Numbered from the stretch's first letter, positions 13,630-63,138 are shown. The stretch: 64,000 nucleotides of DNA from a virus (IMGVR_UViG_3300045988_174371:64001-128000), one strand, 5' to 3'. Notes: generated from the sequence alone by a model not told the origin. Made by a program: numbers and translations.

Positions 13630-14793
13630 TTAGCAGGGCTGGAAAGTGACCTTTGCGGGCTCCCATACGTCGCCGGGTTCCACGGATGCGATGGTGTAGC
13701 TATATCCAGTGAGATTCTGACCGGCAGGCTTGGTTGCCGTGAGGATAATGAGGGGCGTGCGGTTGCCCACATCGCCACCAGTAATGACTGCCACTTTGTC
13801 AGTGATGAACATTGCGGTGGCGTTCCTCATGTGAGATAGGTATTCTGCGGGGTCGATACCTTTAAAGTGGGAGAACTTTGAGTCGTCATAAAGGAATGTT
13901 TCAAAAGCCCAGTTGTCGCCTTTGTTGAAGTCCACAAACATGGTCATGGTCGGCTGACTGAGGGTGGGCGCGGCGCTGTTATCCTTGGAGTTGGTGTACC
14001 AGTTAATAGCGCGTCCTACTCGCTCAGCTTCATTGTCGCGGCTATTGCGGTAGTCCCTACGCTTGGATGCATGGGCGGACTCTCCACTCTTCGCGTATTC
14101 GCACATAATGGAGTGAAAGTCGAGGCTCCATGCGCGGGCTTGCTTCGCTTCTTCTGCTACGCCGTGTCGTATGTGAAGGCGGACACTTTCTGGCACAGAC
14201 TCATCATGCATCATTTCCTTGTCAATGGTGTTCGTGTATGCCGGTACCCAATGACCGTCATAGGCGACAGCGGTTTTGCCGCCGTTAGTCCAACCGTACA
14301 TGTTATTGTGACAGCGGTCACCCGTGAAGTCGCTCACATAGTGGTTGGCGGTAAACTCGCGGGACAGAATGTAGTTGCGAGAATTAGCGCCACACATCCC
14401 ATACGTAGACGATGGGCGCTGGTTACGGGGGTTGGTCACCACTTCAATACGCGGGCAGGGGTAGTCGTAGAAGTGGGTAATCCTGTTGCCTTGCAACAGG
14501 TAGTCCTTGAGCCAGCTGTTGTACATGGCTAGATAGTCAGTTTCCTCTACTTCTTCCGCCTTGACGGTTGCGAAGTTGGGCTTAATTCTTTCTCTCTGGA
14601 GGCGCACCCATGCAGGGTTGATACGGGACTCCGGCTGGAGAGGAGAGCCAGCTTCGGTTTTACTAGGGACAGCTTGTGCAGTATCCACCTTAAGGGGGAT
14701 ACTGTTGCCGGGGTCGCGCCAGGTGGCGTGAAAAACGGTGCCTTGCGCAGTGTCTTCCGTGCCAATAAGTCGGCTAATGAGGTTAGTGAACAT
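13630..14793 (-). CDS. hypothetical protein (387 aa), paralog family B
   Basis: paralog of 10827-11978; conserved CGAAAGGGTG leader. Confidence 0.8.
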   Translation of the reverse strand: MFTNLISRLIGTEDTAQGTVFHATWRDPGNSIPLKVDTAQAVPSKTEAGSPLQPESRINPAWVRLQRERIKPNFATVKAEEVEETDYLAMYNSWLKDYLLQGNRITHFYDYPCPRIEVVTNPRNQRPSSTYGMCGANSRNYILSREFTANHYVSDFTGDRCHNNMYGWTNGGKTAVAYDGHWVPAYTNTIDKEMMHDESVPESVRLHIRHGVAEEAKQARAWSLDFHSIMCEYAKSGESAHASKRRDYRNSRDNEAERVGRAINWYTNSKDNSAAPTLSQPTMTMFVDFNKGDNWAFETFLYDDSKFSHFKGIDPAEYLSHMRNATAMFITDKVAVITGGDVGNRTPLIILTATKPAGQNLTGYSYTIASVEPGDVWEPAKVTFQPC

Positions 14794-16073: not shown

Positions 16074-16158
16074 GTGCCTGTGGTGGAATGGTAGACACGC
16101 CAGCTTGAGGGGCTGGTGTCCGACACAGGACGTGCGGGTTCGAATCCCGCCAGGCACA
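16074..16158 (+). tRNA. tRNA-Leu (anticodon GAG)
   Basis: hand-folded cloverleaf: acceptor GTGCCTG/CAGGCAC, D-arm GTG-GAATGGTAGA-CAC, anticodon stem CCAGC/GCTGG with loop TTGAGGG, long variable arm, T-arm GCGGG-TTCGAAT-CCCGC; CCA not encoded. Confidence 0.9.
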
Positions 16159-16289
16159 CTAGTCACCCCCTATATGGGGTGGTGAGAAGCTTCAGGCTAA
16201 TCTTCTGCCCCCTGCATGGCTTCATCTCATGTAAACCTGGTGGTAATCCCATCACTGGAGTTAAAAGACCTAACGAAAGGTATGTCATT

Positions 16290-18227: not shown

Positions 18228-19076
18228 CTAGAGAATAAAGTGCCCCAGAATGAATCCTGCAAGGAATAGGAGTACTAGAAGGAGCGTCACAATGGCGGGG
18301 TGGCTATACACCGCCTGCTTCACCTGGCTCACAGTTACCGTGTCGCTCGAAGCTGAACTGCTCAGGGTTGAACTACTCGGGGGCAACACGGCACCCTTCG
18401 GCTTCTTAGGCTTCTTGGGTTCCTTGGGTTTCTTCGGCTTCTTGGGTTCCTTGGGTTTCTTCGGCTTCTTGGGAGGCTTGAGAGCCGCAATTTCCTGGCT
18501 ATAGTCGCTAAAGTCCAGATAGCCGATGAGCTGTTCATTGTCCCATCCCTGAGCAGGAAGTACTCCAATGCTAAGCATTGCCTTGAGAACAATTTCCTCG
18601 GCTTCCTCAAGAGAGATAGCGCCGCCCTGAGTGGTGTCAATGTACTCAGTAATGCGCTTAAGAACTCTGTCCCTATCGTCCCTTACAGCGAAGTGCTTAG
18701 GGCGCTCCGAACTTGGCATACTGTGAAACTCGCTAATCGCTTCACTAATACTGTCAGGTAGCGGGGTGTACGGCAATTGGTGGGTATTGTATGCCCACAG
18801 GTGCCGCAAGTAATCCTTAGGCTCAGTGGTTTTAAGGGGAAGCTGGATTTTCTTGTGGATACCATTCTCCGTTGATGTTAGGTGGAGGGAGTACCCATAT
18901 TCGCCAAGGTGAATATGCATCTCTCCGCCGCCTTCTTCTACGAATCGCGGGTAGATGTCCTTGAGCGTGCTTTTGAATGCTGGCACCTGCTTAGCTACGC
19001 CAACCATCAGCATAAGAGCCTGGGCATACTGTGCGCAGGAGTTAATGACACTGTAATCAAGGGTGCTTTTAGCCAT
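18228..19076 (-). CDS. tail-anchored membrane protein with Lys/Pro repeat linker
   Basis: 282-aa ORF; PKKPKEPKK repeats; single C-terminal TM helix; start overlaps the upstream stop (ATGGCTAA). Confidence 0.75.
   Translation of the reverse strand: MAKSTLDYSVINSCAQYAQALMLMVGVAKQVPAFKSTLKDIYPRFVEEGGGEMHIHLGEYGYSLHLTSTENGIHKKIQLPLKTTEPKDYLRHLWAYNTHQLPYTPLPDSISEAISEFHSMPSSERPKHFAVRDDRDRVLKRITEYIDTTQGGAISLEEAEEIVLKAMLSIGVLPAQGWDNEQLIGYLDFSDYSQEIAALKPPKKPKKPKEPKKPKKPKEPKKPKKPKGAVLPPSSSTLSSSASSDTVTVSQVKQAVYSHPAIVTLLLVLLFLAGFILGHFIL
18397..18476. repeat. 27-bp tandem repeat inside CDS 18228-19076
   Basis: cttcttgggttccttgggtttcttcgg occurs at 18411-18437 and again identically at 18438-18464, with partial units on both sides; encodes PKKPKEPKK units. 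Confidence 0.9.
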
Positions 19077-23820: not shown

Positions 23821-23946
23821 GTGGTCACCGCTGGAGACATGTTCATGCGGGCTATTGCTGAGGCGGAAGCTATTAAGGCAACATGGGAAGAAGCTGGGCT
23901 AACCCCTCAGGAAGCCCTGGAACTTCTACGCCACCTTCAATACTAG
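23821..23946 (+). CDS. small ORF (41 aa, helical, acidic)
   Basis: GTG 5 nt after AAAGGAG; TATAAT at 23786-23791 upstream and terminator 23953-23988 downstream. Confidence 0.4.
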   Translation: MVTAGDMFMRAIAEAEAIKATWEEAGLTPQEALELLRHLQY

Positions 23947-23952
23947 AAACAC

Positions 23953-23988
23953 AGTAAAAGCCCTCACGACTAGGTGAGGGCTTTTACT
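23953..23988. terminator. bidirectional hairpin terminator
   Basis: AGTAAAAGCCCTCAC / GTGAGGGCTTTTACT inverted repeat; related in sequence to the terminator at 10712-10750. Confidence 0.7.
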
Positions 23989-24068
23989 GTACCTACATGG
24001 GTTACAGGAGCCACCTCAAAGCACAGGGGGGGGAGAAGCTTGGATTATAAGCTACTCTTCCCACTGCT

Positions 24069-24191
24069 GGGTGGGTCAGGGATTTTCCCTGGCGGTACCC
24101 CCCCCCGCCAGCCGAAGCCAGCCTTCCTGGTCTTGACGTGTTAGCGTCCGTTTAGTTTACCCACCTCTCCCAGTCTCTCACAGGCGAGGTG
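24069..24191 (-). ncRNA. unclassified structured RNA, copy A
   Basis: no ORF; diverged duplicate of 60449-60579 with conserved blocks and compensatory changes in hairpins. Confidence 0.5.
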
Positions 24192-24200
24192 TATTGGTTG

Positions 24201-24710
24201 CTACTGCTCCAGGTATTCCAGGAGGAAGCGCTTTACGGATGCCGCCGCGTGGTCAGCTTCGGCATTAGTGTTGCGACTGCGGGTTAGGGCGTACAGGTAT
24301 AGGGCGTATCCTTCCGTGAACTCATCTAGCTCACCGGCAGGCTTGCGTCCGTGCTCGTTAGCGAGGTGTCCTACAAGGGCGAGCTGGGCTTCTTGGCGGG
24401 TCATTTCGGCGGGGTGGGTGTCGGGTCGCCCAACTTCAACATACCTGCCCGCCTTGTTGATACTGAAAAGGGATGCTACGGCGACTTCGTGTGCGTCCGC
24501 ATTTGAGCGGTAGGTCATATGCATCTGCGGGATGTACGCCCCCTCATTGATAGCGTAGCCGCCGTCGGGTAGGGGCGCGGTGTGGAAGCGGGTGGGGTTG
24601 GTGTTGTCGCCTGCTGGGTAGTAGATGTATTCCCACCGCCCGGAGGTGCGGTTGAGGGTTGCTTCGATGTGCTTGTCGAGGAAGTTCTGTAGGGTGGTTT
24701 CGGTGGTCAT
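24201..24710 (-). CDS. hypothetical protein (169 aa)
   Basis: ATG at 24710 after AGAAAGAGAAA; the longer ORF-track N-terminus is Pro/Arg-rich and lacks an RBS. Confidence 0.7.
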   Translation of the reverse strand: MTTETTLQNFLDKHIEATLNRTSGRWEYIYYPAGDNTNPTRFHTAPLPDGGYAINEGAYIPQMHMTYRSNADAHEVAVASLFSINKAGRYVEVGRPDTHPAEMTRQEAQLALVGHLANEHGRKPAGELDEFTEGYALYLYALTRSRNTNAEADHAAASVKRFLLEYLEQ

Positions 24711-24862
24711 GGGTGGTGTTTCTCTTTCTGTGGATGCCCTGCGGGGTTGCAGGGGTTTGTAGTTGAGTGTTTGTTGCGCGCCCCACTGCCCGATGATGGG
24801 TGGTGGGGCGCGCCGGTGGGCGGGTATCCTTTGGTGACCTGCGGGATGCCCACCCAAAGCCT

Positions 24863-25975
24863 TTAGTGGTACTTGTAGAGCGCCTGAACGTCTTCCAGAC
24901 CGTACTCGGTGCGGATGAGGTTCTTCCAGTCGTCCAGGTTGCGGATGCTGGTGGGGATGCGCTTGCCGTCTTTCTTGATGATGAGGGTGTCGCCGCAGAG
25001 CTTGTTGGCGTAGACGTAGATGCCTTCCAGCTCTGCGAGCATCTGCTCTTCGGTCATGCCTGCGTATTCTGCGGGGATGTATTCGGTCAGACCTGCGCGG
25101 TTAAGTAGGTAGCTGATTGCCACAGGGAGACCGGCGAGCGCCAGCGGGGTTACATAACCGCACTTGCAGGGGGTGTCATCGCTGGTTTCGTGGAGCGCGT
25201 TGTTGAGGCAGAAGGTGTCGAGGTTGCTAGTGGGGTTGGGGGTCAGGGGCGCAGATGCTTCTCGGACAGCGTATCGCCATGCCGCATCGGATACCTCGAT
25301 TGCTTCTCCCCACTCGGGGCTACCGTTCACGGTTCCATCTGCGGCGAGGCGGTAGTTATTGACGGTTGCCTTGCCGGGCTCTGCGGACAAGATGACATTG
25401 CCTGACAGTCGAGCGCCGGAGGTATTTACGTCGTACACGATAACCTGTCCGGTGGTGCTGAGTCCTTCATGTTCACCACCGATAACGCTACTGTACCCGT
25501 CAATGACACAGTTCTTGAGGGTGGTTCGCGCGGCGAAAGCGTGACCCATAAGCACGGTGTCTTCCATGTAGAGCTGGTCGAGAGCTACGCCCGCCTTGTC
25601 AATAATGGCATTGCAACCCAGCAGGCGCTTACCCAGCTCATTGTTGCAGGTGTAGAGGTTGTTGCGCACCTTTTCTACCTGGAGCTGGTCGGCTACAGCA
25701 TCAAGGGTCTCAATGAAGGTAGCCTTAGGGCGGACGGAGGTGCCACTGTAGAGTACCGCTCCGGGGCGGTTCAGCATGGCTTCGCGGCGGAACTGAGAGA
25801 GCTCCCGGACGGGGTTGTGGAGGCTCAGGCTGTCCTCATGCAGGCTTGCTTTGTTGGTGGGCATGGTCAAGCCGTGGCGCGCGCGGCTCCAAGCAGGAAG
25901 CTTCATCTGCGCGGTGACGTTCTTGGAGGTCTTGATGATGCAAGCGGTAGGCTTAGTGCTTTCACGAAGGGTCAT
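24863..25975 (-). CDS. hypothetical protein (370 aa), possible beta-helix-like central region
   Basis: AAAGGAG RBS; family promoter upstream; the central G/V/N-rich repetitive segment is only suggestive. Confidence 0.75.
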   Translation of the reverse strand: MTLRESTKPTACIIKTSKNVTAQMKLPAWSRARHGLTMPTNKASLHEDSLSLHNPVRELSQFRREAMLNRPGAVLYSGTSVRPKATFIETLDAVADQLQVEKVRNNLYTCNNELGKRLLGCNAIIDKAGVALDQLYMEDTVLMGHAFAARTTLKNCVIDGYSSVIGGEHEGLSTTGQVIVYDVNTSGARLSGNVILSAEPGKATVNNYRLAADGTVNGSPEWGEAIEVSDAAWRYAVREASAPLTPNPTSNLDTFCLNNALHETSDDTPCKCGYVTPLALAGLPVAISYLLNRAGLTEYIPAEYAGMTEEQMLAELEGIYVYANKLCGDTLIIKKDGKRIPTSIRNLDDWKNLIRTEYGLEDVQALYKYH

Positions 25976-26037
25976 TGGTCAGCTCCTTTGAAGGTAGGTC
26001 ATTCATGATTACTGGTTACTTCCGAACCAATAATCAT

Positions 26038-26067: not shown

Positions 26068-26123
26068 GCGCTACGGCTTTCCTTAGATGCTTAAAACATG
26101 CCCCCAAGGAGGAAATATAGATG

Positions 26124-26196
26124 TACCCCTTGCCGGGTTCGAACCGGCGACTTCTAGATTCGGACTCTAGCGCTCTATCCACTGAGCTAAAGGGGC
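26124..26196 (-). tRNA. tRNA-Arg (anticodon CCG)
   Basis: hand-folded: acceptor GCCCCTT/AAGGGGT (G1-U72 wobble), D-arm GCTC-AGTGGATA-GAGC, anticodon stem CTAGA/TCTAG with loop GTCCGAA, T-arm GCCGG-TTCGAAC-CCGGC; position 32 is an unusual G. Confidence 0.8.
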
Positions 26197-40465: not shown

Positions 40466-41332
40466 CTATTCGCTAACCACGGGCACCATCTTATCGACAG
40501 TACCGGCAGGAATGTGGATAATGGTGCGTGCTTTCGTGAACTTCACTGTTTCAGTCCTGTCATCACAGCGGGGGTATAGACCGAAATCTTCGGGAGCATA
40601 CCTGTAGATACATGCTTCCTTACCGGCGGCAATAGCGCCACCCTTCACCTGGTACTCAACAATGCGTTCTACGCGGGCTTCCGTATCGGTAGCTGGCAGG
40701 TCATCCTTGAGTGTGACCTCGTATCGGTCATCGCTCACCTTTTGAACAGAGCGTGTCGCAAGGGCTCCATCTTCCTTGCGTTCTACCCAGGTATAGGTGT
40801 CGCCACTGGTGTTGCTTCGTAAGCTGTTGATGGGGTAGGTGTGGGTATCACCTTCTAGCTTGTGTCCGTTAGCGTCCAGGTGATAGGTGACGGTTTGGTC
40901 GAATGTTGCGTTTGCCGCTTTCTTCGCATTCTCCGTTGTGTTTGAGGATATGGCAAGTCCTACTATTGAGGCTGTTGCGGCTAGGCACGCGATGGCAATC
41001 AGTAGCGTTTTACAATATGCGCCACCAGCGCTATTGCCGGGGTCTACTAGGAAGAATATGCCGCCAAGCACTAACGCGAGAAGCAAAGCAAACCCTGCAA
41101 ACCCAACCAACCCATTCTTGAGCACATACGCGGTGGTTAGGAGCGCTATTGCGCAGGCTACCCAAAAACAATACATGCCCACAAGGGCGTTCATCCAAGC
41201 TTCCTCATCGTCATACTCTTCATCTTTGGTCGCCTTAGCAGATATGCAGATGGGAATAATGCCCGCAAAGATGATGAGGAAAATAAAGCCTGTTACAGCT
41301 ATGGCGGTTAGCCCGGTTTCAGGGTTGGGCAT
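40466..41332 (-). CDS. membrane protein, paralog family A (subfamily 2)
   Basis: motifs LKDDLPATDTEARVERIVEY and IIHIPAGTVDKMV; close to 49139-50017 and 50232-51107. Confidence 0.8.
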   Translation of the reverse strand: MPNPETGLTAIAVTGFIFLIIFAGIIPICISAKATKDEEYDDEEAWMNALVGMYCFWVACAIALLTTAYVLKNGLVGFAGFALLLALVLGGIFFLVDPGNSAGGAYCKTLLIAIACLAATASIVGLAISSNTTENAKKAANATFDQTVTYHLDANGHKLEGDTHTYPINSLRSNTSGDTYTWVERKEDGALATRSVQKVSDDRYEVTLKDDLPATDTEARVERIVEYQVKGGAIAAGKEACIYRYAPEDFGLYPRCDDRTETVKFTKARTIIHIPAGTVDKMVPVVSE

Positions 41333-46400: not shown

Positions 46401-46476
46401 AATTGTTGTATCCCTTCGGTGGGTTGAAAAGCTGACTAGGCTTCGGGTTTCTATTCCCCGACTGCCTTATATCTAT

Positions 46477-46506
46477 AGTCTATCACAGATTTAAAGCTGT
46501 ATGCAA
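46477..46506 (-). promoter_or_regulatory. family promoter (-35 TTGCAT, TGa-TAGACT)
   Basis: upstream of CDS 46023-46400. Confidence 0.6.
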
Positions 46507-46709
46507 ACTAAATTTGAGTGAGGTGCGCCACATCTACCTACACCCAAAAGAGAGTGCAGGTAAATATCTAGGGTACGGCTTGGCAACCAAGGCATCAAAG
46601 CGGGCAACCTTAGTGCTATCACGTAGACTACTGACGATACTCCATTAGCTGTAGCAAGCATGGTTATTCGGGAAAAGGTTGCCCCGCGCCAGGCTTTCAG
46701 GTTGGGAGT

Positions 46710-49138: not shown

Positions 49139-50017
49139 CTATTCGCCGGTCATGGCAACCATCTTATCCATACTGCCAGCGGGAATATGGATGATAGTGC
49201 GCGACTTACTGAACTCTGCCCTAGTTTTGCCTTCGTCACATTCAGGGAGCGCGTGGAAGAATCTATTGTATCCGTATCCGTCATTGACGGCGCACACTTC
49301 CTTCCCGGCGGCTACCTCTGCACCCTTCACCTTATACTCTACGATGCGTTCTACGCGAGCTTCAGTGCTGGTGGCGGGCAGGTCATCCTTGAGGGTGACC
49401 TCAAACAGGTTGCCGTCACCCCTATTTACGCTAACGTGCACTAGAGTACCGTCGCCTTTACGCTCTAGCCAGCTGTAGGTGTTTCCATTATTGCTGGTTC
49501 GCAGGTTGCTAATAGGGGAGGTGTTAGGTTCCCCTTCCAGCTTATTATTGTTGCTGTCTAGGTGGTAGGCGACCACCTGATTGTATTGCGCGTCTTCTGC
49601 TTCTTGCGTCGCCTGAGTAACGTTGATGCAGAGCGCTACCAAGCCCGTAATTACCGCGAACGCTAGAAGCAGAAGGACATCTCGCTCGTTTGACTCGTAC
49701 CGCTGACGCGCGTCCATCTTGGCAATTTCCTCAGTCGCAGAGAAGAGGTAGATGATGTAGGCAAGGTATGTCCAGCCGAAACCGAAGATGGCGAACAGAA
49801 TCAGTCCGGGGTTGCCCATGACGATACCTGCAACCAATACGACGGCGAGCCATACTAGCTGAGCATAGTAGAACCGTGTTCGGGCACGCCTATACGCCTT
49901 TTCCTGCTCATCTACCGGCATCTTACTGATACGTGAAGGGATAACCCGCCCATACACAATGAGGGTGGCAATAACGGAAAGGACAGCGAAGCTAATCCAG
50001 ATGATTGCAAAATCCAT
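49139..50017 (-). CDS. membrane protein, paralog family A (subfamily 2)
   Basis: motifs LKDDLPATSTEARVERIVEY and IIHIPAGSMDKMV. Confidence 0.8.
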   Translation of the reverse strand: MDFAIIWISFAVLSVIATLIVYGRVIPSRISKMPVDEQEKAYRRARTRFYYAQLVWLAVVLVAGIVMGNPGLILFAIFGFGWTYLAYIIYLFSATEEIAKMDARQRYESNERDVLLLLAFAVITGLVALCINVTQATQEAEDAQYNQVVAYHLDSNNNKLEGEPNTSPISNLRTSNNGNTYSWLERKGDGTLVHVSVNRGDGNLFEVTLKDDLPATSTEARVERIVEYKVKGAEVAAGKEVCAVNDGYGYNRFFHALPECDEGKTRAEFSKSRTIIHIPAGSMDKMVAMTGE

Positions 50018-50231: not shown

Positions 50232-51107
50232 CTATTCGCCGGTTACGGTAACTATCTTGTCCATGCTACCAGCGGGGATATGGATAACCGTTCGGGTCTT
50301 TACGAAGCGCGCCGCCGCCGCACCCTTATCGCAGATGGGAAGGATGCCAAGGTCGCCCCTGCTGAACTTCTCGACACACGCCTCCTTACCAGCGGATGCG
50401 TCATCGCCCTTAACCCTGTACTCAACAGAACGCTCTACGCGCGGTTCCGTGTCAGTTGCTGGCAAGTCATCTTTGATGGTGACCTCATACCGCTCATCAG
50501 GCACCTTCTCCACGGTTCGCGTATCGAAGGTTCCATCCTCGGCGCGTTCCGCCCAGCTATAGCTGGTTCCTTCACGGTTGGTTCGCACGCTGGTTACTGG
50601 GTATGTGTGCGTGTTACCTTCCAGCTTTTGGTTATTAGCGCCTATGTAGTAGGTGATGCTCTGGCTGTACTGCGCATCTTCTGCCGCCTGTTCAGCCCTA
50701 AGCTTTTCGGCGTAACCCGGAAAGCTCATTACAAGTCCTAGCGCAATAAAGATACCAACCCCACTGGCAACAACTTTAAAGTATAACTCTAGTTCACCGC
50801 CACAGTTTTCATCTGCCCAGAGAAAACAGCAGATTATCCCGCCAACAGAAACACCTCCCAGCAGGAAGAACATGCCATCACGAACAATTACCGCAAGTGC
50901 AAAGAGGGCGATAGTGCAGATACCCAGGAAGCTTAGTGCCGCCAATGCCGCCCAACCCAGGAAGTCAGGGCAATCAATCCGTTTACCTGTCTTCCGGTAT
51001 CGCACTACATAAGCTATCGTAACTGCCGGAATGATGACCGCGAAAACAGCGAAGAAGATGCCGCCCGTGGTCATGATTACGTTCAGCCATGCATTATATT
51101 TCTCCAA
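50232..51107 (-). CDS. membrane protein, paralog family A (subfamily 2)
   Basis: TTG start; motifs IKDDLPATDTEPRVERSVEY and VIHIPAGSMDKIV. Confidence 0.8.
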   Translation of the reverse strand: MEKYNAWLNVIMTTGGIFFAVFAVIIPAVTIAYVVRYRKTGKRIDCPDFLGWAALAALSFLGICTIALFALAVIVRDGMFFLLGGVSVGGIICCFLWADENCGGELELYFKVVASGVGIFIALGLVMSFPGYAEKLRAEQAAEDAQYSQSITYYIGANNQKLEGNTHTYPVTSVRTNREGTSYSWAERAEDGTFDTRTVEKVPDERYEVTIKDDLPATDTEPRVERSVEYRVKGDDASAGKEACVEKFSRGDLGILPICDKGAAAARFVKTRTVIHIPAGSMDKIVTVTGE

Positions 51108-51414: not shown

Positions 51415-52671
51415 CTATTCGATGGGGTCGCGCTCTTCCTGCAAGCGTGCTTCGTACTCTCCTAGAATGGCGCTTGCATTAGACAGAACGTCGTACCGCT
51501 TAGCGATGGTTTCGAGTTCACCCTCAAACTCTCGCTGTAGCGCTTTCTTCCCAACTTCACAGAGGGCAGTTACAGTTCGGGGCACACGCCAGGGCTTTTC
51601 CAGCCAGCGATGGATTGCCCATTCTGCGCCGATGTAGAAGTTGAACTTGAACACCTGCTCACCAATAGGGAAGCCTAGGCGGAACGTATTAAACACGGCT
51701 TCCTGCCACTCTACAAGCTTCCCCCATTCCTGAACCTTGTCTACGGCTCCGGCGGGGATGACACTAAACGCTTCTACAGTACTTTCAATGTCTCCGCTAC
51801 TGTTTACGTATTCGATTTCAATTCGTCGGCTAACCCCGTCGCAGTCGTCTGCGTCGTGGAAGTCATTCTCCGGCTCGTATCCTTCACAGATTTCACAGGC
51901 GTACTCGCGAACCACGGCGGTAAAGGTGCCTACCTTGTTGCCGCCCGTGTCCGTGAGGGTGAGGTTGCCGTTTTCTTCGCCGGTGATGATTCCGGCGCGG
52001 CGGGCACCTTTATCGTTGGTGAGTGTGAACTCTACGCCTTCACCGATAAAGAATCCAATGTCGAGCCGGTCGTTTCTCGCCTGGTACTCTGCGGGAGATT
52101 TGAGCATCACGAACTCCCCCAACTTCGTATCACTAGTGAAAGCGGCGAGCTTGGACTGTTCGGCTTGAATGTAGCTATCCGCAATTTCATTGAGGATGCT
52201 GTATTCGCGCTCTAGGGTGCCCTGCTCATCCTGCCGGGAGTCACGTACACCCTTCAAGATGGTGAGACGCTGGGCGCGGGTAAGCTCCTCAGGTGCGATG
52301 AAGAGCTGGGTTTCGCTAAGCTCCTTGAACTGGTTGAGTGCCCAAGTGTGCTGTTTAGCGGCGCGTTCTTCGTCGCCAGGGAAATGTGCTACCACGTTCA
52401 TACGTTCGTTCCATGCGAAGCCTGCGCCGTTGCTACGGGTGTCGCGGGTAGCGGTTTCAACCACAACGTACTCGCCGGTTTCCGTGTCGTTGATGAGTAC
52501 AGCACGGGTGGGGTAGCCGCTCATAGCGGTGTAGTAAATGCGGTCGATTACTACGCTGTTGCCGCCGTGTGCGGCTAGTACGCGAACGGTTTCGTATGAG
52601 CCGCGTTCGCGTGTGGTGTTCATGATGAGATAGTTGCCGGTGGCGATTTTAGAGAAGTCAATGTCAGGCAT
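51415..52671 (-). CDS. hypothetical protein (418 aa), GD-motif modular family
   Basis: ATG at 52671 after AGAAGGAAG; N-terminus IATGNYLIMN. Confidence 0.75.
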   Translation of the reverse strand: MPDIDFSKIATGNYLIMNTTRERGSYETVRVLAAHGGNSVVIDRIYYTAMSGYPTRAVLINDTETGEYVVVETATRDTRSNGAGFAWNERMNVVAHFPGDEERAAKQHTWALNQFKELSETQLFIAPEELTRAQRLTILKGVRDSRQDEQGTLEREYSILNEIADSYIQAEQSKLAAFTSDTKLGEFVMLKSPAEYQARNDRLDIGFFIGEGVEFTLTNDKGARRAGIITGEENGNLTLTDTGGNKVGTFTAVVREYACEICEGYEPENDFHDADDCDGVSRRIEIEYVNSSGDIESTVEAFSVIPAGAVDKVQEWGKLVEWQEAVFNTFRLGFPIGEQVFKFNFYIGAEWAIHRWLEKPWRVPRTVTALCEVGKKALQREFEGELETIAKRYDVLSNASAILGEYEARLQEERDPIE

Positions 52672-52748
52672 GGTGCTTCCTTCTTGCTGGTAATGACAGT
52701 ATACAGTCCCCCTAAGCAATGTTCTAGGGGGACTGTATATGATTGGGA

Positions 52749-53114
52749 CTAGTTGGTTACCTTGACCTTTTCGACCTTCAGAACCTTGTCCCACACGCCG
52801 CCTTCTGCGCTAATTGCGAAGCCTTCAATTACGCCGCGCTTCTTCGCCATGCCCGCCCAGAAGTCATAGTTTTCGTCGTCATTATTGACGATTACGTAGA
52901 CCGCCTTGCTCTTATCGGCATTGTAGAACCAGATGTAGACCATATCGTCGGCGTACTCGCCTTCGTCGTCGTTATACATTTCAACGAACTCCATCTCACA
53001 AGCGACGGCTTCATTGTTGATGAAATCGACGGTTTCCTCGGTGGTCATGGTCTTATTGTATGCCTCAACCTTGACGTTTGCGTAACCGTCTTCAAAATTT
53101 ACTTCGTAGTTCAT
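52749..53114 (-). CDS. small acidic protein (121 aa), paralog family E
   Basis: NYDFWAGMAKKRGVIEGF aligns with 44886-45272. Confidence 0.75.
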   Translation of the reverse strand: MNYEVNFEDGYANVKVEAYNKTMTTEETVDFINNEAVACEMEFVEMYNDDEGEYADDMVYIWFYNADKSKAVYVIVNNDDENYDFWAGMAKKRGVIEGFAISAEGGVWDKVLKVEKVKVTN

Positions 53115-53279: not shown

Positions 53280-53990
53280 CTACCTAGAAAGGAGGGTTAC
53301 CGTAGCGTCGATGGTAAGCTTTCCATCCTCACCAACCCCTACGCGGTCGAACGTATTGCCGTAGGCGTGTTTCTGGTAGAACTTCTTAGAGAAGCGTTCA
53401 CCCACCTTTCGAACAAACTCAGTATCCCCATCCACCTTCGCCACCAGGCACACAGATGCAATAGCGCCATCAAAGTTGATACTGTACTTAATTTCGCCTT
53501 TTTCAGCGTGAATGTCGAAGTAGCCAGAGTAGTAAGAACGCTCCTGCCAGTCTTCAATGCCGCCTTGACGGTGAGTTTCCACGAAGTGAAGGTTTACGGT
53601 TTCCATTTCGTTCGCCCGTTCCACTTCTAGTGGGTTACCCTGTACAAGCTCATTGAACTTAATGACTGCAATGCTGGACACCTCATCTACTTCTACGGTG
53701 TAGTCCTTGACGTAGAGGTCAGCATAAGCGCCGGTAACCAGCAGGTACTTTAGGGCAGTGGTGGTTTCGTGGGCTGTCCTTGTCTTGTAGATAGAGTTAT
53801 CTTCCACATCTACGAACTTGATGTGCGATTTGATGCCTACAGCATCATCACCCTCAGCCCAGGTATCACCTGCAAGCTTGATAGGAAGTTTGCCACTCAG
53901 GATAAGCGCCTTCGCCTCCTCCTTGTCGCCAAGGGAGAAATTGACAGTGAGAGACATTTTATCGGGAAATACTACGAATGGTTTCGCCAT
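53280..53990 (-). CDS. hypothetical protein (236 aa), paralog family F
   Basis: aligns with 60680-61450 and 61609-62343 (Y.KDYT..VD ... F.E...GNPL ... VNLHF). Confidence 0.8.
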   Translation of the reverse strand: MAKPFVVFPDKMSLTVNFSLGDKEEAKALILSGKLPIKLAGDTWAEGDDAVGIKSHIKFVDVEDNSIYKTRTAHETTTALKYLLVTGAYADLYVKDYTVEVDEVSSIAVIKFNELVQGNPLEVERANEMETVNLHFVETHRQGGIEDWQERSYYSGYFDIHAEKGEIKYSINFDGAIASVCLVAKVDGDTEFVRKVGERFSKKFYQKHAYGNTFDRVGVGEDGKLTIDATVTLLSR

Positions 53991-56300: not shown

Positions 56301-56373
56301 GTTGGCGATTCCTTCCTGAGAATCAATGTTTGGCTTGGAGGGGCTTTTCGGTATCCCCCTGCCTTATATCTAT

Positions 56374-56403
56374 AGTCTATCACAGATTTAAAACTGTATG
56401 CAA
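56374..56403 (-). promoter_or_regulatory. family promoter (-35 TTGCAT, 18 nt, TGa-TAGACT)
   Basis: upstream of CDS 55986-56300. Confidence 0.6.
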
Positions 56404-56503
56404 GTTAAATTTAAGTGAGGTGTACCACAGCTATAGGCGGGTGACTCAATCATTACCTTGAGTCGCCCGCCTAGCCCTATGCCACTTTGTAGATACTTCC
56501 TTA

Positions 56504-60303: not shown

Positions 60304-60395
60304 CTACCTGCCACTAACAGTCACAGGGGTATCTAAGGTAATTTCCCCGTCTACAATGCTTACACACTCAAACTTTCCACCTCTGCTACTAGGTG
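60304..60395 (-). pseudogene. 3'-terminal remnant of a fourth family-F gene
   Basis: nucleotide-level match to the last ~27 codons plus stop of 60680-61450 (translates ...GGKFECVSIVDGEITLDTPVTVSGR*); no start or N-terminal part. Confidence 0.6.
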
Positions 60396-60448
60396 TGTGG
60401 ATGAGCCGCGCACACTGAGAAGGTTCTTACCCATGAGCCACCCATTTA

Positions 60449-60581
60449 GGTGGGTCAAGGATTCTCCCTGACGGTAACCCTCCAGCCAACCCAAGGGTTA
60501 GCCTTCCTGGTCTTGACGCCACCCGAAGGCAATGCCCGTTTAGATTATCCACCTCTCCCAGTCTCTCACAGGCGAGGTGCT
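60449..60581 (-). ncRNA. unclassified structured RNA, copy B
   Basis: no ORF; diverged duplicate of 24069-24191; extended -10 directly upstream on the minus strand. Confidence 0.55.
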
Positions 60582-60585
60582 AGTT

Positions 60586-60596
60586 GGATTATACCA
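60586..60596 (-). promoter_or_regulatory. extended -10 promoter TGGTATAATCC
   Basis: read on the minus strand immediately 5' of RNA copy B; no clear -35. Confidence 0.5.
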
Positions 60597-60597
60597 T

Positions 60598-60648
60598 CTC
60601 AAAAGCTGACGGCGCGCGATTTAAAGCCACACACCGTCAGCTTTTGAG
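60598..60648. terminator. bidirectional hairpin terminator after 60680-61450
   Basis: CTCAAAAGCTGACGG / CCGTCAGCTTTTGAG 15-bp inverted repeat with U-tracts on both strands. Confidence 0.7.
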
Positions 60649-60679: not shown

Positions 60680-61450
60680 CTACCTGTTGCTAACAGTTAC
60701 CTGAACATCTAAGGTAATTTCCCCATCCACAATGCTTACACACTCAAACTTCCCGCCATTTCGGGGTTGGTGGTCGTAACAGAATCCGTCTAGGAAGCTC
60801 TTAAGAACCTTTTCGCCAAACTCTTCGTCGCCCTCAACCTTTGCTAATAGGCGGGCATAGGTGCCATATAGCCCATCATGAGGCTTGCCCAAGTCAATAC
60901 CGTAAACAATGACACCTTTTTCAATGTAGCCTTCGCCATTGGAGTAGAAGGCACCCCTGGAATAGTAAGGGTAGCGCCTCCAGTCTCCCAGGTGATTGAT
61001 TCGGCTAAGCTCTTCGTCTACTACGAAGTGAAGGTTTACGGTGGTCGTATCGCGCTCACTCTCACCCGTGAGCGGGTTACCCTCGACTACCTCTTCAAAC
61101 TCGATGGTGGCAGTATGGGATTCGTAGTCTACAGTAATAGTGTAGTCCTTGATGTAGATGTTGGCGTGTTCTCCTAGCGCGAGAATGTGCTTCATTTCTT
61201 CGGTTGTTTCAGGTACGCCCGTGGTGGGGTAGGCAACCCTATCGCGGGCATCTTCTACGAACTCAATGTTTGGTTCGATAACGACGTAAGGGAGGTAGTA
61301 GTGCCCATCCCATTTCTCGTCCACATAGGTTTCGCCGTTGAGCTTGATAGGTAGGTGCTTGGTTAGGATTTCTTGCTCCGTGTAGGAGCCGGGGTCGAAG
61401 TGGACGGTTAGGGTCTTCTTCTTAGGGAAAATGATGTATGGGTGAGTCAT
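60680..61450 (-). CDS. hypothetical protein (256 aa), paralog family F
   Basis: aligns with 53280-53990 and 61609-62343. Confidence 0.8.
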   Translation of the reverse strand: MTHPYIIFPKKKTLTVHFDPGSYTEQEILTKHLPIKLNGETYVDEKWDGHYYLPYVVIEPNIEFVEDARDRVAYPTTGVPETTEEMKHILALGEHANIYIKDYTITVDYESHTATIEFEEVVEGNPLTGESERDTTTVNLHFVVDEELSRINHLGDWRRYPYYSRGAFYSNGEGYIEKGVIVYGIDLGKPHDGLYGTYARLLAKVEGDEEFGEKVLKSFLDGFCYDHQPRNGGKFECVSIVDGEITLDVQVTVSNR

Positions 61451-61608: not shown

Positions 61609-62343
61609 TTATGCCTTCGGGACAGTAAGAGAAACGTCAATGGTGATGGTGTCACCCTCAACGTTCACGTATTGTGCGCTTTCGCGTGCCTTTGCGTAGA
61701 AGTCTCGCTCGAAGCGGCGGGCTACTCGCTTGACTCGTTCCGGGTCGCCGTCTACCTTTGCTACCATGCGTGCTCCCTTGCCGTAGGTTTCATGTCCACC
61801 GTCGAGGCTGATAATGTACACGATTTCGCCTTCTTCGGCGTAGCTGGCGAGGCTTGCGGAGCTGTAGGGGTACTTCTTCCACAGTTCCATGTCGCCCAGT
61901 GAGCTGTAGTGCGTATTGGGGGTGAAGTGGAGGTTTACTTCCTCTACGTCGTTCGGGTCGATTTCGAGGGGGTTACCCTGGTAGAGTTCGTGGAACTTTA
62001 GGGTGCCAGTCTTTGCTTCTTCGTCTACATCCAGGGTGTAGTCCTTGATGTGGAGGTTTCCCTTGGTGCCTGCAATAATGAAGTACTGCAAGGCTTCGGG
62101 GGTGTTGTCGTCTACATAGAACTGCGCGAGCGTGTTATCAAAAGCGTCTACGAGGGTAAGTTCAGGGTATGCTACCGCTTCATATGAGTCGTAGTAGCTG
62201 TCGTAGTCCTTTTCAGCACTGACGTACCCGTCCAGCTTAATGGCAACCTTGTCGCTGTTGAGGTCTACATTATTCTCGTCTATGCGATAGTTGGAGAGGT
62301 TGAGGGTGACTCCCTGCGGGAAAATACAAATGGGCTGAGACAT
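61609..62343 (-). CDS. hypothetical protein (244 aa), paralog family F
   Basis: aligns with 53280-53990 and 60680-61450; TCGAAAGGCAC leader. Confidence 0.8.
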   Translation of the reverse strand: MSQPICIFPQGVTLNLSNYRIDENNVDLNSDKVAIKLDGYVSAEKDYDSYYDSYEAVAYPELTLVDAFDNTLAQFYVDDNTPEALQYFIIAGTKGNLHIKDYTLDVDEEAKTGTLKFHELYQGNPLEIDPNDVEEVNLHFTPNTHYSSLGDMELWKKYPYSSASLASYAEEGEIVYIISLDGGHETYGKGARMVAKVDGDPERVKRVARRFERDFYAKARESAQYVNVEGDTITIDVSLTVPKA

Positions 62344-62949: not shown

Positions 62950-63025
62950 GATTGTTACCCTTTCGGTAGCTGGTTAATGATTTACGGCTTAGGGGTTTTT
63001 TCGCATCCCCTTGCCTTATATCTAT

Positions 63026-63055
63026 AGTCTACCACAGATTTAGAACTACACACAA
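63026..63055 (-). promoter_or_regulatory. family promoter (-35 TTGTGT, TGg-TAGACT)
   Basis: upstream of CDS 62575-62949. Confidence 0.55.
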
Positions 63056-63138
63056 ATCGGTTTTGCGTGGGTTAGCTCACACTCTAGGCGGGTAAAGCGC
63101 CCCTCCAATATATACATGCTCACATCCTCACCACACCG

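What the first reader, a model, noticed from the sequence alone, without database searches (positions are those of the whole stretch)
60449..60596. Unclassified ~130-nt structured RNA with its own extended -10 promoter (copy B of a two-member family)
The stretch 60449-60579 has no ORF and is a diverged duplicate of 24069-24191. Read as minus-strand RNA, four blocks are identical in both copies: CACCUCGCCUGUGAGAGACUGGGAGAGGUGG at the 5' end, AAACGG, GUCAAGACCAGGAAGGCU in the centre and GACCCACC at the 3' end. Between these blocks the sequence differs, yet each variable segment still folds as a hairpin. (i) GACG-CUAACA-CGUC in copy A becomes a longer stem capped by a UUCG tetraloop in copy B. 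(ii) CUGGC-UUCG-GCUGG becomes CUAACC-CUUG-GGUUGG. (iii) GGCGG-loop-CCGCC becomes GGC(U)GG-loop-CCGUC. (iv) CAGGGA-AAA-UCCCUG becomes CAGGG-AGAAU-CCUUG. Most wobble pairs are G-U only on the minus strand and become C-A on the plus strand, which favours a minus-strand RNA. One pair in the terminal GGUGGRU/ACCCACC helix argues the other way. Directly upstream on the minus strand is TGGTATAAT (60596-60588), which would start transcription near 60581. Three short helices share the GGUGG/CCACC segments: CACCUC/GAGGUG, GGUGGRU/ACCCACC, and CCACC/GGUGG just 3' of the element. They are mutually exclusive, so a conformational switch is conceivable. I do not recognise the RNA as tRNA, tmRNA, SRP, 6S, RNase P or any riboswitch class I know.
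Basis: partly seen in the sequence, partly recalled or inferred. Interest (0 to 1): 0.8.

Follow-up and report, generated by a model that had tools for sequence, protein, structure and literature searches.

The report
Phage Cas12n guide RNA gene
The "unclassified" structured RNA is the scaffold of a CRISPR-Cas12n guide RNA that a giant phage from the human mouth (probably infecting Rothia) carries as a stand-alone, ready-fused single-guide gene. Its guide is aimed at a gene variant found in rival phages.

Summary
Two diverged minus-strand copies (60579-60441 and 24191-24062) share a structure that holds across 50 distinct homologues: 98.6% of cells paired, 15 of 32 pairs with compensatory changes.

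The RNA is not an unknown class. It is the tracrRNA-equivalent scaffold of a type V-N (V-U4) Cas12n guide RNA.
- A covariance model built from the phage copies hits the 3' end of the cas12n ORF in Rothia, which is where the published Cas12n tracrRNA lies.
- That hit is followed by a CRISPR array with almost the same 28-nt repeat and 33-nt spacers.
- Related oral jumbo phages encode a Cas12n about 60% identical to the structurally solved RdCas12n. It sits among 155 such scaffolds in 365 kb, interleaved with tRNA genes and mini-arrays.

ACCCAYC pairs with a downstream repeat strand GRUGG (stem 5), followed by CUC-N and then a guide. Each copy is therefore a natural single-guide RNA gene.

Protospacers of the phage guides lie in rival phages, including this window, and are preceded by 5'-AAC, the published RdCas12n PAM. 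The last guide of a unit is the DNA that flanks the unit, as in TnpB omegaRNA.

No cas12n lies in the window.

Verdict: a known kind in a new and interesting arrangement.

The parts
60598..60648 (-). Copy B: long hairpin CUCAAAAGCUGACGG...CCGUCAGCUUUUGAG between the stop of ORF 60680-61450 and the promoter. It probably terminates or insulates the upstream gene.
   Evidence: Read in the sequence. It was picked up only as chance miRNA-like hairpins by Rfam at E>0.1. It has no T-run, so the terminator scan did not call it.
60588..60596 (-). Copy B: extended -10 promoter TGGTATAAT, 8 nt upstream of the RNA start. No -35 element.
   Evidence: Comparable -10 elements at the same distance lie upstream of about 25 related units. 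The simple two-hexamer scan finds nothing because there is no -35.
60550..60579 (-). Copy B stem 1 (P1): CACCUC-G-CC-U-GU-[GAGAG]-AC-U-GG-GA-GAGGUG. The apical loop GAGAG (60567-60563) is the candidate pseudoknot partner of CUC at 60437-60435.
   Evidence: RNAalifold and pair counts: GC/AU/GU at columns 12-20, UA/CG at 13-19, CG/GC at 1-31. The pseudoknot is proposed by analogy with RdCas12n, where -4..-2 pair with the stem-1 loop (PMC12216341). Both partners are invariant here.
60515..60536 (-). Copy B stem 2 (P2), variable in length and capped by UUCG. It is preceded by the conserved A-rich joiner GAUAAUCUAAACG (60549-60537).
   Evidence: The upper part of stem 2 varies from 4 to about 50 nt among homologues and is disordered in the RdCas12n structure.
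60476..60512 (-). Copy B core: long-range helix GACC (60512-60509) with GGUU (60479-60476), enclosing the invariant AGGAAG and stem 3 (P3, 60503-60484).
   Evidence: P3 has 4 pairs with double changes. The long-range helix shows only one-sided changes (GU/GC).
60456..60470 (-). Copy B stem 4 (P4): CAGGGA-GAA-UCCUUG.
   Evidence: All 6 pairs covary.
60434..60453 (-). Copy B stem 5, a minimal anti-repeat:repeat hairpin CCACC-UAAAUG-GGUGG (60453-60438), followed by CUC-A (60437-60434), the repeat 3' end next to the guide.
   Evidence: CCACC/GGUGG 14 times, CCAUC/GAUGG 12, CCGCC/GGCGG 2, wobble 9, mismatch 9, out of 48 units. The insert is 6-92 nt long. The same strand recurs as a 28-nt CRISPR repeat with period 61 in related loci and in Rothia.
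60414..60433 (-). Copy B guide, UGGGUAAGAACCUUCUCAGU. The length of about 20 nt is inferred from RdCas12n. Homology to the target allele continues to 60381.
   Evidence: It matches L168:6769-6737 and L200:9407-9375 at 29 of 33 positions, directly after AAC. The homology runs on for 53 nt. There is no exact 20-mer in IMG/VR.
60304..60381 (-). Remnant copy of the last 78 nt of the neighbouring gene, a direct repeat of 60680-60757 at 83% identity. Together with 60433-60381 it is a decayed 3' fragment of a paralogue into which the unit is set.
   Evidence: (family D12).
60840..60894 (-). The segment of the phage's own intact gene (ORF 60680-61450) that corresponds to the protospacer. It is strongly diverged over about 55 nt and has GAC where the target allele has the PAM AAC, so it should escape guide B.
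   Evidence: Three-way alignment. Guide B has no other hit in the window.
24062..24191 (-). Copy A scaffold: P1 24191-24162, P2 24148-24135 (shortened), P3 24123-24106, P4 24091-24077, anti-repeat CCACC 24074-24070. It starts 10 nt after the stop of ORF 24201-24857 and has no promoter of its own.
   Evidence: (119 bits). The G9 run at 24106-24098 breaks part of the long-range helix. The orthologue L288 has the consensus sequence there.
24007..24069 (-). Copy A stem-5 insert (24069-24016), the repeat strand GGUGG (24015-24011) and CUCC (24010-24007).
   Evidence: The insert holds UUAUAAUCCAAG (24050-24039), which resembles copy B's promoter.
23987..24006 (-). Copy A guide, UGUAACCCAUGUAGGUACAG.
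   Evidence: The only IMG/VR match is the orthologous unit L288:4197-4216. No target was found.
23945..23987 (-). Intrinsic terminator right after guide A: GUAAAAGCCCUCAC-CUAGUC-GUGAGGGCUUUUAC followed by UGUGUUU.
   Evidence: Read in the sequence. The scan did not call it because the tail has too few T.

Best explanation
Each copy is a gene for a natural single-guide RNA of a phage type V-N (V-U4) CRISPR-Cas12n system.

The transcript then continues through three further elements:
- stem 5, an intramolecular anti-repeat:repeat duplex (ACCCAYC... with ...GRUGG);
- CUC-N, which probably forms a pseudoknot with the GAGAG loop of stem 1;
- a guide of about 20 nt.

Copy B is transcribed from its own extended -10 promoter. 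Copy A is probably read through from the upstream gene and ends at an intrinsic terminator just after its guide.

The RNA would load onto a roughly 520-aa Cas12n encoded elsewhere in the jumbo-phage genome. That step is inferred: the gene is present in close relatives but absent from this window. The complex would cut DNA that carries 5'-AAC followed by the guide sequence.

The guides are aimed at alleles of related, competing jumbo phages. Guide B matches a rival allele of the neighbouring paralogous gene, while the phage's own copy is diverged there and lacks the PAM.

Shown here: the structure, the homology to the Rothia Cas12n tracrRNA position and repeat, the presence of the effector in relatives, and protospacers with AAC. 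Inferred: expression, loading, cleavage, and the presence of cas12n in this particular genome.
For: Structure:
- Five helices are supported on 50 homologues.
- The base of stem 5 covaries.

Effector:
- L159:3449-5011 matches PADLOC Cas12u4 at E=1.8e-163.
- It matches PDB 9j09_A at E=2.6e-173, about 60% identical over the full length. 9J09 is cited as the Cas12n structure in bioRxiv 10.64898/2026.03.27.714800.
- A scaffold starts 20 nt after the stop of this gene.

Homology to the known RNA:
- Model R1 hits Rothia locus L284:5546-5709 (32 bits, E=5e-7), overlapping the cas12n ORF end at 5680.
- That hit is followed by the repeat TTTTCCCCGTATGCGCGGGGATGAGCCC with 33-nt spacers. The phage repeat is TTTTCCCCGTACACATGGGGATGGCTCC, also with period 61.
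- The published RdCas12n sgRNA has five stems plus a pseudoknot in which -4..-2 pair with the stem-1 loop. The upper parts of stems 2, 3 and 5 are dispensable, the tracrRNA overlaps the ORF, and the PAM is 5'-AAC (PMC12216341).

Function:
- 14 of about 19 genuine non-array protospacer hits are preceded by AAC, where about 0.3 would be expected by chance.
- These include window 52557-52530 and 49549-49460.
- The guide B target is preceded by AAC, and the phage's own allele is diverged with GAC.

Relatives:
Against: - No cas12n or remnant of it lies in the 64-kb window (tblastn; PADLOC). The rest of the 360-kb contig could not be read.
- Guide B has 3 mismatches in its first 20 nt against the only target found. 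No target was found for guide A.
- Copy A deviates from the consensus in the core (a G9 run, broken pairs), so it may be decaying.
- The pseudoknot partners are invariant, so the pseudoknot is untested by covariation.
- The match of the model to Rothia is modest (32 bits). More distant actinobacterial Cas12n/TnpB loci give no hit.
- There are no expression data.
Confidence: 0.85

Rival explanations
1. The units are decoys or hijackers aimed at the host. Rothia chromosomes carry their own Cas12n with a nearly identical repeat. The phage scaffolds would load onto the host enzyme, either titrating it (an RNA anti-CRISPR) or redirecting it to targets the phage chooses, rather than serving a phage-encoded effector.
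For: The host-type repeat and tracrRNA are homologous to the phage ones. The window copies have no cognate gene nearby. The copy number is very high. RNA anti-CRISPRs made of solitary repeats are known (own knowledge: Camara-Wilpert et al. 2023).
Against: Related phages encode their own full-length Cas12n with intact Pfam domains, sitting in the middle of the units. The guides have real protospacers with the correct PAM in rival phages. A pure decoy would not need that.
Confidence: 0.08
2. The units are right-end remnants of IS605/IS607-type TnpB transposons (omegaRNA/reRNA). They would be relics of transposition, and guide-equals-flank would simply be the transposon junction, with no present function.
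For: The terminal guide is continuous with the flanking DNA for 90 nt or more and starts after AAC in unit-free genomes. Cas12n is regarded as the closest CRISPR relative of TnpB (PMC12216341). A serine recombinase gene lies just upstream of the phage cas12n.
Against: The window copies are not attached to a tnpB/cas12n gene. No left-end or right-end hairpins or IS-type TnpA were seen, and the recombinase is of the resolvase type with a C-terminal HTH_7. Many units carry true mini-arrays with 33-nt spacers whose homology to targets stops at 29-32 nt. The scaffolds are under purifying selection for structure and carry their own promoters.
Confidence: 0.05
3. One reading: an independent regulatory small RNA or riboswitch-like element that toggles between alternative GGUGG/CCACC helices.
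For: In the two window copies, three short complementary segments do exist.
Against: Across homologues, GGUGGRU does not covary with ACCCAYC. For example, GGUGCCU and GGUACCU both occur with CCCAUC or CCCGCC. The 3' segment covaries with the downstream repeat strand instead. There is no conserved downstream ORF. The whole architecture is explained by the Cas12n sgRNA.
Confidence: 0.02

Closest known systems
RdCas12n tracrRNA:crRNA / engineered sgRNA (type V-N, formerly V-U4; Rothia dentocariosa; PDB 9J09; PMC12216341)
   Same: - Five stems plus a pseudoknot just 5' of the guide.
- Variable, dispensable upper parts of stems 2, 3 and 5.
- Stem 5 is the anti-repeat:repeat duplex.
- The guide is at the 3' end and the PAM is 5'-AAC.
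- The 28-nt repeat and 33-nt spacers are almost the same in Rothia.
- The covariance model of the phage RNA hits the ORF-overlapping tracrRNA position in Rothia.
   Different: - Here the scaffold and repeat are joined naturally in one transcript. In the laboratory sgRNA the join is an artificial GAAA loop.
- The scaffold lies outside any cas12n ORF and has its own promoter or follows a tRNA.
- It is present in dozens to hundreds of dispersed copies per genome.
- The carrier is a jumbo phage, not a bacterial chromosome.
TnpB omegaRNA (reRNA) of IS200/IS605 elements
   Same: A single RNA made of a structured scaffold followed by a 3' guide. The guide is the DNA that flanks the element, and the target is the element-free site next to a short 5' motif (TAM or PAM). 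The effector belongs to the same protein family.
   Different: No TnpA and no transposon ends were found. The scaffold is not embedded in the nuclease gene. The units may also carry CRISPR-type repeat-spacer arrays. Spread, if it happens, would be between co-infecting phage genomes.
Virus-borne mini-CRISPR arrays and free-standing phage homing endonucleases (e.g. T4 SegB at the tRNA region), which cause marker exclusion between co-infecting phages (PMC13565253; PMC11656645)
   Same: These are weapons carried by phages and aimed at close relatives. The targets are alleles of shared genes, and the attacker's own allele is diverged. In relatives the units are associated with tRNA islands.
   Different: Recognition is RNA-guided, through Cas12n with a fused tracr scaffold. 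It is neither protein-based nor dependent on a host class 1 system.
Engineered polycistronic tRNA-gRNA arrays (own knowledge: Xie et al. 2015)
   Same: In related phages, tRNA genes alternate with sgRNA units: 22 tRNAs and 14 scaffolds in 8 kb. tRNA processing could therefore release the guides.
   Different: The arrangement is natural. It is not seen for the two window copies. Processing was not tested.

Membership tests
Cas12n (type V-N/V-U4) tracrRNA / guide-RNA scaffold | Sequence-and-structure homology to the RNA at the 3' end of a characterised-clade cas12n gene | tested here: met
   Model R1, built from phage copies only, hits Rothia mucilaginosa L284-L287 at 5546-5709. The hit overlaps the ORF end at 5680, on the same strand, at 32 bits and E=5e-7. 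The RdCas12n RNA sequence itself could not be obtained.
Cas12n (type V-N/V-U4) tracrRNA / guide-RNA scaffold | An anti-repeat complementary to the cognate CRISPR repeat | tested here: met
   ACCCAYC(UAACCGCR...) pairs with (...YGCGGG)GRUGG of the repeat strand, with covariation. The same strand is the 28-nt repeat of the arrays.
Cas12n (type V-N/V-U4) tracrRNA / guide-RNA scaffold | Five stems plus a pseudoknot between the stem-1 loop and the nucleotides just 5' of the guide | tested here: inconclusive
   Stems 1-5 are supported by covariation. The pseudoknot partners GAGAG and CUC are present and complementary, but they are invariant, so there is no covariation test.
Cas12n (type V-N/V-U4) tracrRNA / guide-RNA scaffold | A cognate cas12n gene in the same genome, classically with the tracrRNA overlapping its 3' end | tested here: not met
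   None lies in the 64-kb window. It is present in related jumbo-phage contigs, with a scaffold starting 20 nt after the stop. The remaining 297 kb of this contig could not be read.
Cas12n (type V-N/V-U4) tracrRNA / guide-RNA scaffold | Trans-acting: encoded separately from the crRNA | tested here: not met
   The scaffold, repeat strand and guide are contiguous, with a loop of 6-92 nt. It is therefore a natural sgRNA or omegaRNA-like molecule, not a tracrRNA in the strict sense.
Cas12n (type V-N/V-U4) tracrRNA / guide-RNA scaffold | Targets flanked by the 5'-AAC PAM | tested here: met
   14 of about 19 protospacers found in related loci and in the window are preceded by AAC, and so is the guide B target. 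The PAM is as published.
TnpB omegaRNA / reRNA | The guide is the DNA flanking the element end, and it targets the empty site next to the TAM | tested here: met
   Copy B plus 7 independent terminal guides show homology to unit-free genomes that starts right after AAC. For the 7 terminal guides it runs 84-92 nt, close to the whole 90-nt query. For copy B it runs 53 nt, then resumes for 48 nt after a deletion.
TnpB omegaRNA / reRNA | Embedded in, or abutting, tnpB within an IS200/605 or IS607 element that has TnpA and defined ends | tested here: not met
   There is no tnpB/cas12n in the window. No IS ends were recognised. The only recombinase seen near the phage cas12n is of the resolvase type.
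CRISPR array | Two or more direct repeats separated by unique spacers | tested here: not met
   Each window copy has a single repeat strand. After guide B there is only a degenerate GUGCGCGGCUCA. Related loci and Rothia have true arrays of period 61.
Any Rfam 15 family (tRNA, tmRNA, SRP, 6S, RNase P, riboswitches, ribozymes) | A covariance-model score at or near the gathering threshold | tested here: not met
   There is nothing at the gathering threshold. At E<=10 only chance miRNA hairpin hits appear, on the upstream hairpin.

The most novel reading that the evidence does not exclude
The stand-alone Cas12n single-guide units may be RNA-guided homing or marker-exclusion cassettes. A unit sits at an AAC site, and its last guide is the adjoining DNA. 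Together with the phage Cas12n it would therefore cut the unit-free allele of a co-infecting relative. Recombinational repair would then copy the unit, and neighbouring genes, into the cut genome.

This would be a TnpB-like selfish mode retained inside a system that already has CRISPR-type repeat-spacer arrays. It would be a living intermediate between omegaRNA and tracrRNA+crRNA, amplified to a hundred or more guide genes per jumbo-phage genome.
Probability: 0.4. Interest if true: 0.8.

Novelty: new variant of a known kind. Interest (0 to 1): 0.62.

Why it matters
Cas12n is regarded as the earliest step from the transposon nuclease TnpB to CRISPR-Cas12. Here the same scaffold occurs in nature in three forms:
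- as an unsplit single guide whose guide is the flanking DNA, like an omegaRNA;
- as the head of mini-arrays with ordinary 33-nt spacers;
- in the inferred host genus Rothia, as an ORF-embedded tracrRNA followed by an array.

This puts the proposed split of omegaRNA into tracrRNA and crRNA within reach of direct comparison in one clade.

The arrangement also shows jumbo phages of the human mouth carrying an arsenal of ready-made guide genes. Some have their own promoters and many alternate with tRNA genes. They are aimed at their relatives, which is a candidate RNA-guided counterpart of homing-endonuclease marker exclusion.

There is a practical side. Nature has already produced minimal versions, such as copy B with a 6-nt stem-5 loop. 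These resemble the truncations engineers make to improve Cas12n sgRNAs.

The RNA family is not in Rfam, so the alignment and model made here could be used to annotate it.

Tried and rejected
- **Rfam.** Searched at gathering and at E<=10. Nothing was found.
- **Similarity to deposited phages.** Searched with the RNA and with 6 kb around it. No match.
- **Pfam and PHROGs on 20 neighbouring or large ORFs**. Nothing useful. A retron-type reverse transcriptase downstream of the RNA was considered and dropped.
- **SRP-like reading of GUCAAGACCAGGAAGG.** This came from memory and has no Rfam support.
- **Pseudoknot between a P1-loop UGGG and the 3' CCCA.** Suggested by the first five sequences, then rejected. 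P1 pairs internally (CC/GG and GU/AC covary), and CGGG occurs together with CCCA.
Rejected.
- **GRTGGCTC as a start codon plus peptide, or as a genome-wide motif.** The reading frames are not conserved. The motif is not enriched in the window: 7 occurrences against 4.8 expected.
- **A class 1 (type I-E or I-F like) array with a Cas6 8-nt handle.** Considered because of the 28/33-nt geometry and the CCCC...GGGG hairpin. Dropped once Cas12n and the Rothia locus were found.
- **Model search of 80 more distant actinobacterial Cas12n/TnpB loci.** No significant hit, so the family as modelled is confined to the Rothia and Rothia-phage clade.
- **Search for cas12n on the window's own contig.** Cluster members and one contig look-up were tried. 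The contig was not among those returned, so this remains unresolved.
- **Single-sequence MFE folds**. These are only partly informative: z = -3.0 for copy B and -1.5 for copy A.

Full report
**1. Observation**

On the minus strand, 60579-60449 and 24191-24069 are diverged copies of one element. No sizeable ORF covers them. Rfam 15 finds only the two tRNA genes of the window at the gathering threshold, and nothing relevant at E<=10. ARAGORN finds no tRNA or tmRNA there. TGGTATAAT lies at 60596-60588.

**2. What genome this is**

The window is part of a 360,715-bp contig from a human oral metagenome. Its G+C content is about 51%. It has no similarity to deposited phage genomes.

Of 74 ORFs, only five have Pfam matches: thymidylate synthase, DHFR, a Bax-inhibitor-like protein, a T7 gp5.9-like RecBCD inhibitor and a DUF. 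No defence-system protein is found. This fits a jumbo phage.

**3. Homologues and structure**

Pattern scans of IMG/VR and of metagenome contigs brought in about 50 distinct homologues. They lie several per contig, on oral contigs of 160-360 kb.

On an alignment of 50 distinct sequences (A3), RNAalifold gives five helices:
- an irregular hairpin, P1;
- P2, which varies in length;
- a long-range GACC/GGUY helix enclosing P3;
- P3 itself;
- P4.

Of all cells, 98.6% form standard pairs, and 15 of 32 pairs show changes on both sides. No shuffle out of 500 reaches these values. Sliding the partners by 1-3 columns drops pairing to 30-48% and leaves at most 5 pairs with changes on both sides.

A covariance model (R1) finds exactly two copies in the window, at 135 and 119 bits. 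It finds 155 in 365 kb of related loci, for example 14 in 8 kb of L172.

**4. The 3' end is further downstream**

After P4, the conserved ACCCAYC(UAACCGCR) is followed by an insert of 6-92 nt and then (YGCGGG)GRUGG-CUC-N. The two sides covary: CCACC/GGUGG 14 times, CCAUC/GAUGG 12, CCGCC/GGCGG 2, wobble 9 and mismatch 9, out of 48 units.

GGUGCCU or GGUACCU occur with CCCAUC or CCCGCC.

The 3' strand of this stem 5 is the 3' part of a 28-nt repeat, UUUUCCCCGUACACAUGGGGAUGGCUCC. In many related loci this repeat recurs with 33-nt spacers at a period of 61. The element is thus a structured scaffold, an anti-repeat:repeat hairpin and a variable 3' segment.

**5. Identity**

Among the ORFs of the related loci, a 520-aa protein (L159:3449-5011) matches PADLOC Cas12u4 at E=1.8e-163. 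It also matches PDB 9j09_A at E=2.6e-173, about 60% identical over the full length. 9J09 is cited as the Cas12n structure. A scaffold begins 20 nt after the stop of this gene. The gene occurs on many contigs of 260-385 kb.

The closest cellular relatives are Rothia proteins at 54-58% identity. In the Rothia mucilaginosa chromosomal locus, model R1 was built only from phage copies. It nevertheless hits 5546-5709 on the gene's strand and overlaps the ORF end at 5680 (32 bits, E=5e-7). An array follows, with the repeat TTTTCCCCGTATGCGCGGGGATGAGCCC and 33-nt spacers.

This is the published layout of Cas12n (PMC12216341):
- the tracrRNA overlaps the ORF;
- the 194-nt sgRNA scaffold has five stems and a pseudoknot in which positions -4..-2 pair with the stem-1 loop;
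- the upper parts of stems 2, 3 and 5 are disordered;
- the PAM is 5'-AAC.

In the phage RNA, the invariant CUC just 5' of the guide and the invariant GAGAG loop of P1 are placed to form that pseudoknot. Both are invariant, so this step rests on analogy only.

More distant actinobacterial Cas12n/TnpB loci give no R1 hit.

**6. Evidence that the guides are used**

Guides and spacers taken from the phage units have matches outside arrays in related phage loci and in this window. In 14 of about 19 genuine cases the 5' flank ends in AAC. Examples in the window are 52557-52530 (flank ...GGCGGCAAC, 28 of 28 matching) and 49549-49460 (flank ...ACAGCAAC).

Two classes appear:
- Spacers followed by another repeat match their target over only 29-32 nt.
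- The last guide of a unit is continuous with DNA that stays homologous in unit-free genomes for nearly the whole 90-nt query (84-92 nt), starting right after AAC. This holds at seven independent sites.

This is the omegaRNA logic, in which the guide is the flank and the target is the empty site. At the one site examined in detail (L180 against the window), only the right flank is syntenic. The units therefore sit at recombination breakpoints.

**7. The two window copies**

*Copy B.* The elements, in order, are:
- a hairpin at 60648-60598;
- the extended -10 at 60596-60588;
- the scaffold at 60579-60456;
- a minimal stem 5 at 60453-60438;
- CUCA at 60437-60434;
- the guide from 60433.

The guide matches L168 and L200 at 29 of 33 positions, directly after AAC. 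The homology runs on to 60381. It is followed by a copy of the last 78 nt of the neighbouring gene.

The phage's own intact gene (60680-61450) is conserved on both sides but strongly diverged over the protospacer-equivalent 60894-60840. It has GAC in place of AAC. The guide would therefore spare its own genome.

*Copy A.* It starts 10 nt after the stop of ORF 24201-24857 and has no promoter. P2 is short, and a G9 run disturbs the core. Stem 5 is long (24074-24011). The guide is at 24006-23987, and an intrinsic terminator follows directly. An orthologue with the same guide lies in a 307-kb IMG/VR contig. No target was found.

No cas12n or fragment of it lies in the window.

**8. Promoters and context in relatives**

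The 92 distinct upstream contexts fall into three classes:
- a tRNA gene plus a small hairpin, then the scaffold (about 40);
- a sigma-70-type promoter, often TTGC-N17-TGnTAnnnT, ending 8-10 nt before CACCUC (about 25, including copy B);
- directly after a gene stop (the copy A type).

The tRNA islands of relatives hold 22 tRNA genes and 14 scaffolds in 8 kb.

**9. Comparison and novelty**

The RNA belongs, by homology and architecture, with the Cas12n guide-RNA scaffold. That is a known and structurally solved kind which is absent from Rfam.

It differs in four respects:
- it is naturally fused to the repeat and guide;
- it lies outside the nuclease gene;
- it carries its own promoter, or is set among tRNAs;
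- it is amplified and dispersed in a jumbo phage, with the terminal guide taken from the flank.

I found no paper describing this arrangement. Related concepts do exist: omegaRNA-like arrays (PMC10691335), the split of omegaRNA into tracrRNA and crRNA and intronless homing (PMC13565253), and CRISPR in mobile elements (PMC11656645).

**10. Verdict**

The best explanation is a natural Cas12n single-guide RNA gene used in conflict between phages. My confidence is about 0.85 for the identity. It is lower for activity of these two particular copies.

The most novel reading still open is that the units are RNA-guided homing cassettes. I put that at about 0.4.

Noticed in passing
window 33848-63085 (13 sites, e.g. 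46461-46536, 56358-56433, 63010-63085): A conserved intergenic box. On the + strand it reads CTTGCCTTATATCTATAGTCTAYCACAGATTTAAA; on the minus strand, AAATCTGTGRTAGACTATAGATATAAGGCA. It lies upstream of minus-strand genes and is often preceded by a small GC hairpin. It looks like a phage-specific promoter or regulatory site (families D1-D3).
   Followed up: no
window 52530-52557 and 49460-49549 (also weakly 50262-50282): This window itself carries protospacers for guides of related phages (units in L177/L191 and in L180). Each is preceded by 5'-AAC and lies inside an ORF: 51415-52794 and 49139-50017 respectively.
   Followed up: partly
window 53280-53990 / 60680-61450 / 61609-62343; 40466-41332 / 49139-50017 / 50232-51107; 10827-11978 / 13630-14793: Several families of paralogous genes with no Pfam or PHROG match. 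The guides of copy B and of rival phages fall in these families.
   Followed up: partly
window 24039-24050: The stem-5 insert of copy A contains TTATAATCCAAG, nearly the same as copy B's promoter GGTATAATCCAAC. It may be an internal promoter for a crRNA-only transcript, or a trace of a nested unit.
   Followed up: no
window 24098-24106 and 24026-24033: Copy A has G9 and C8 homopolymer runs. At least the G9 run is replaced by consensus sequence in the orthologue L288. This could be decay or an assembly artefact.
   Followed up: partly
window 24001-26000: G+C is 0.589 here against about 0.51 elsewhere. The region covers the two ORFs upstream of copy A (24201-24857 and 24863-25975), which have no family match.
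   Followed up: no
L289-L294 (e.g. L289:282-995), related phages: A 237-aa serine recombinase (Resolvase plus HTH_7) lies about 500 nt upstream of the phage cas12n in several contigs.
   Followed up: no
L172, L187, L170, L197 (related phages): tRNA islands of up to 22 tRNA genes in 8 kb, interleaved with Cas12n scaffolds and mini-arrays. Some terminal guides run into a tRNA gene.
   Followed up: partly
window 18387-18485: A 9-nt tandem repeat, about 11 copies (CTTGGGTTT/CTTCGGCTT), inside ORF 18228-19076 on the minus strand. It would encode a Lys/Pro-rich repeat (family D4).
   Followed up: no
window 16074-16159 (+) and 26123-26196 (-): tRNA-Leu(GAG) and tRNA-Arg(CCG) genes. Neither is next to a scaffold.
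   Followed up: no
L199:4404 guide vs L159:3432-3454: One guide matches the junction between the cas12n 3' end and the following scaffold in other phages (23 of 23), without an AAC flank. This might be targeting or regulation of a rival's cas12n locus.
   Followed up: no
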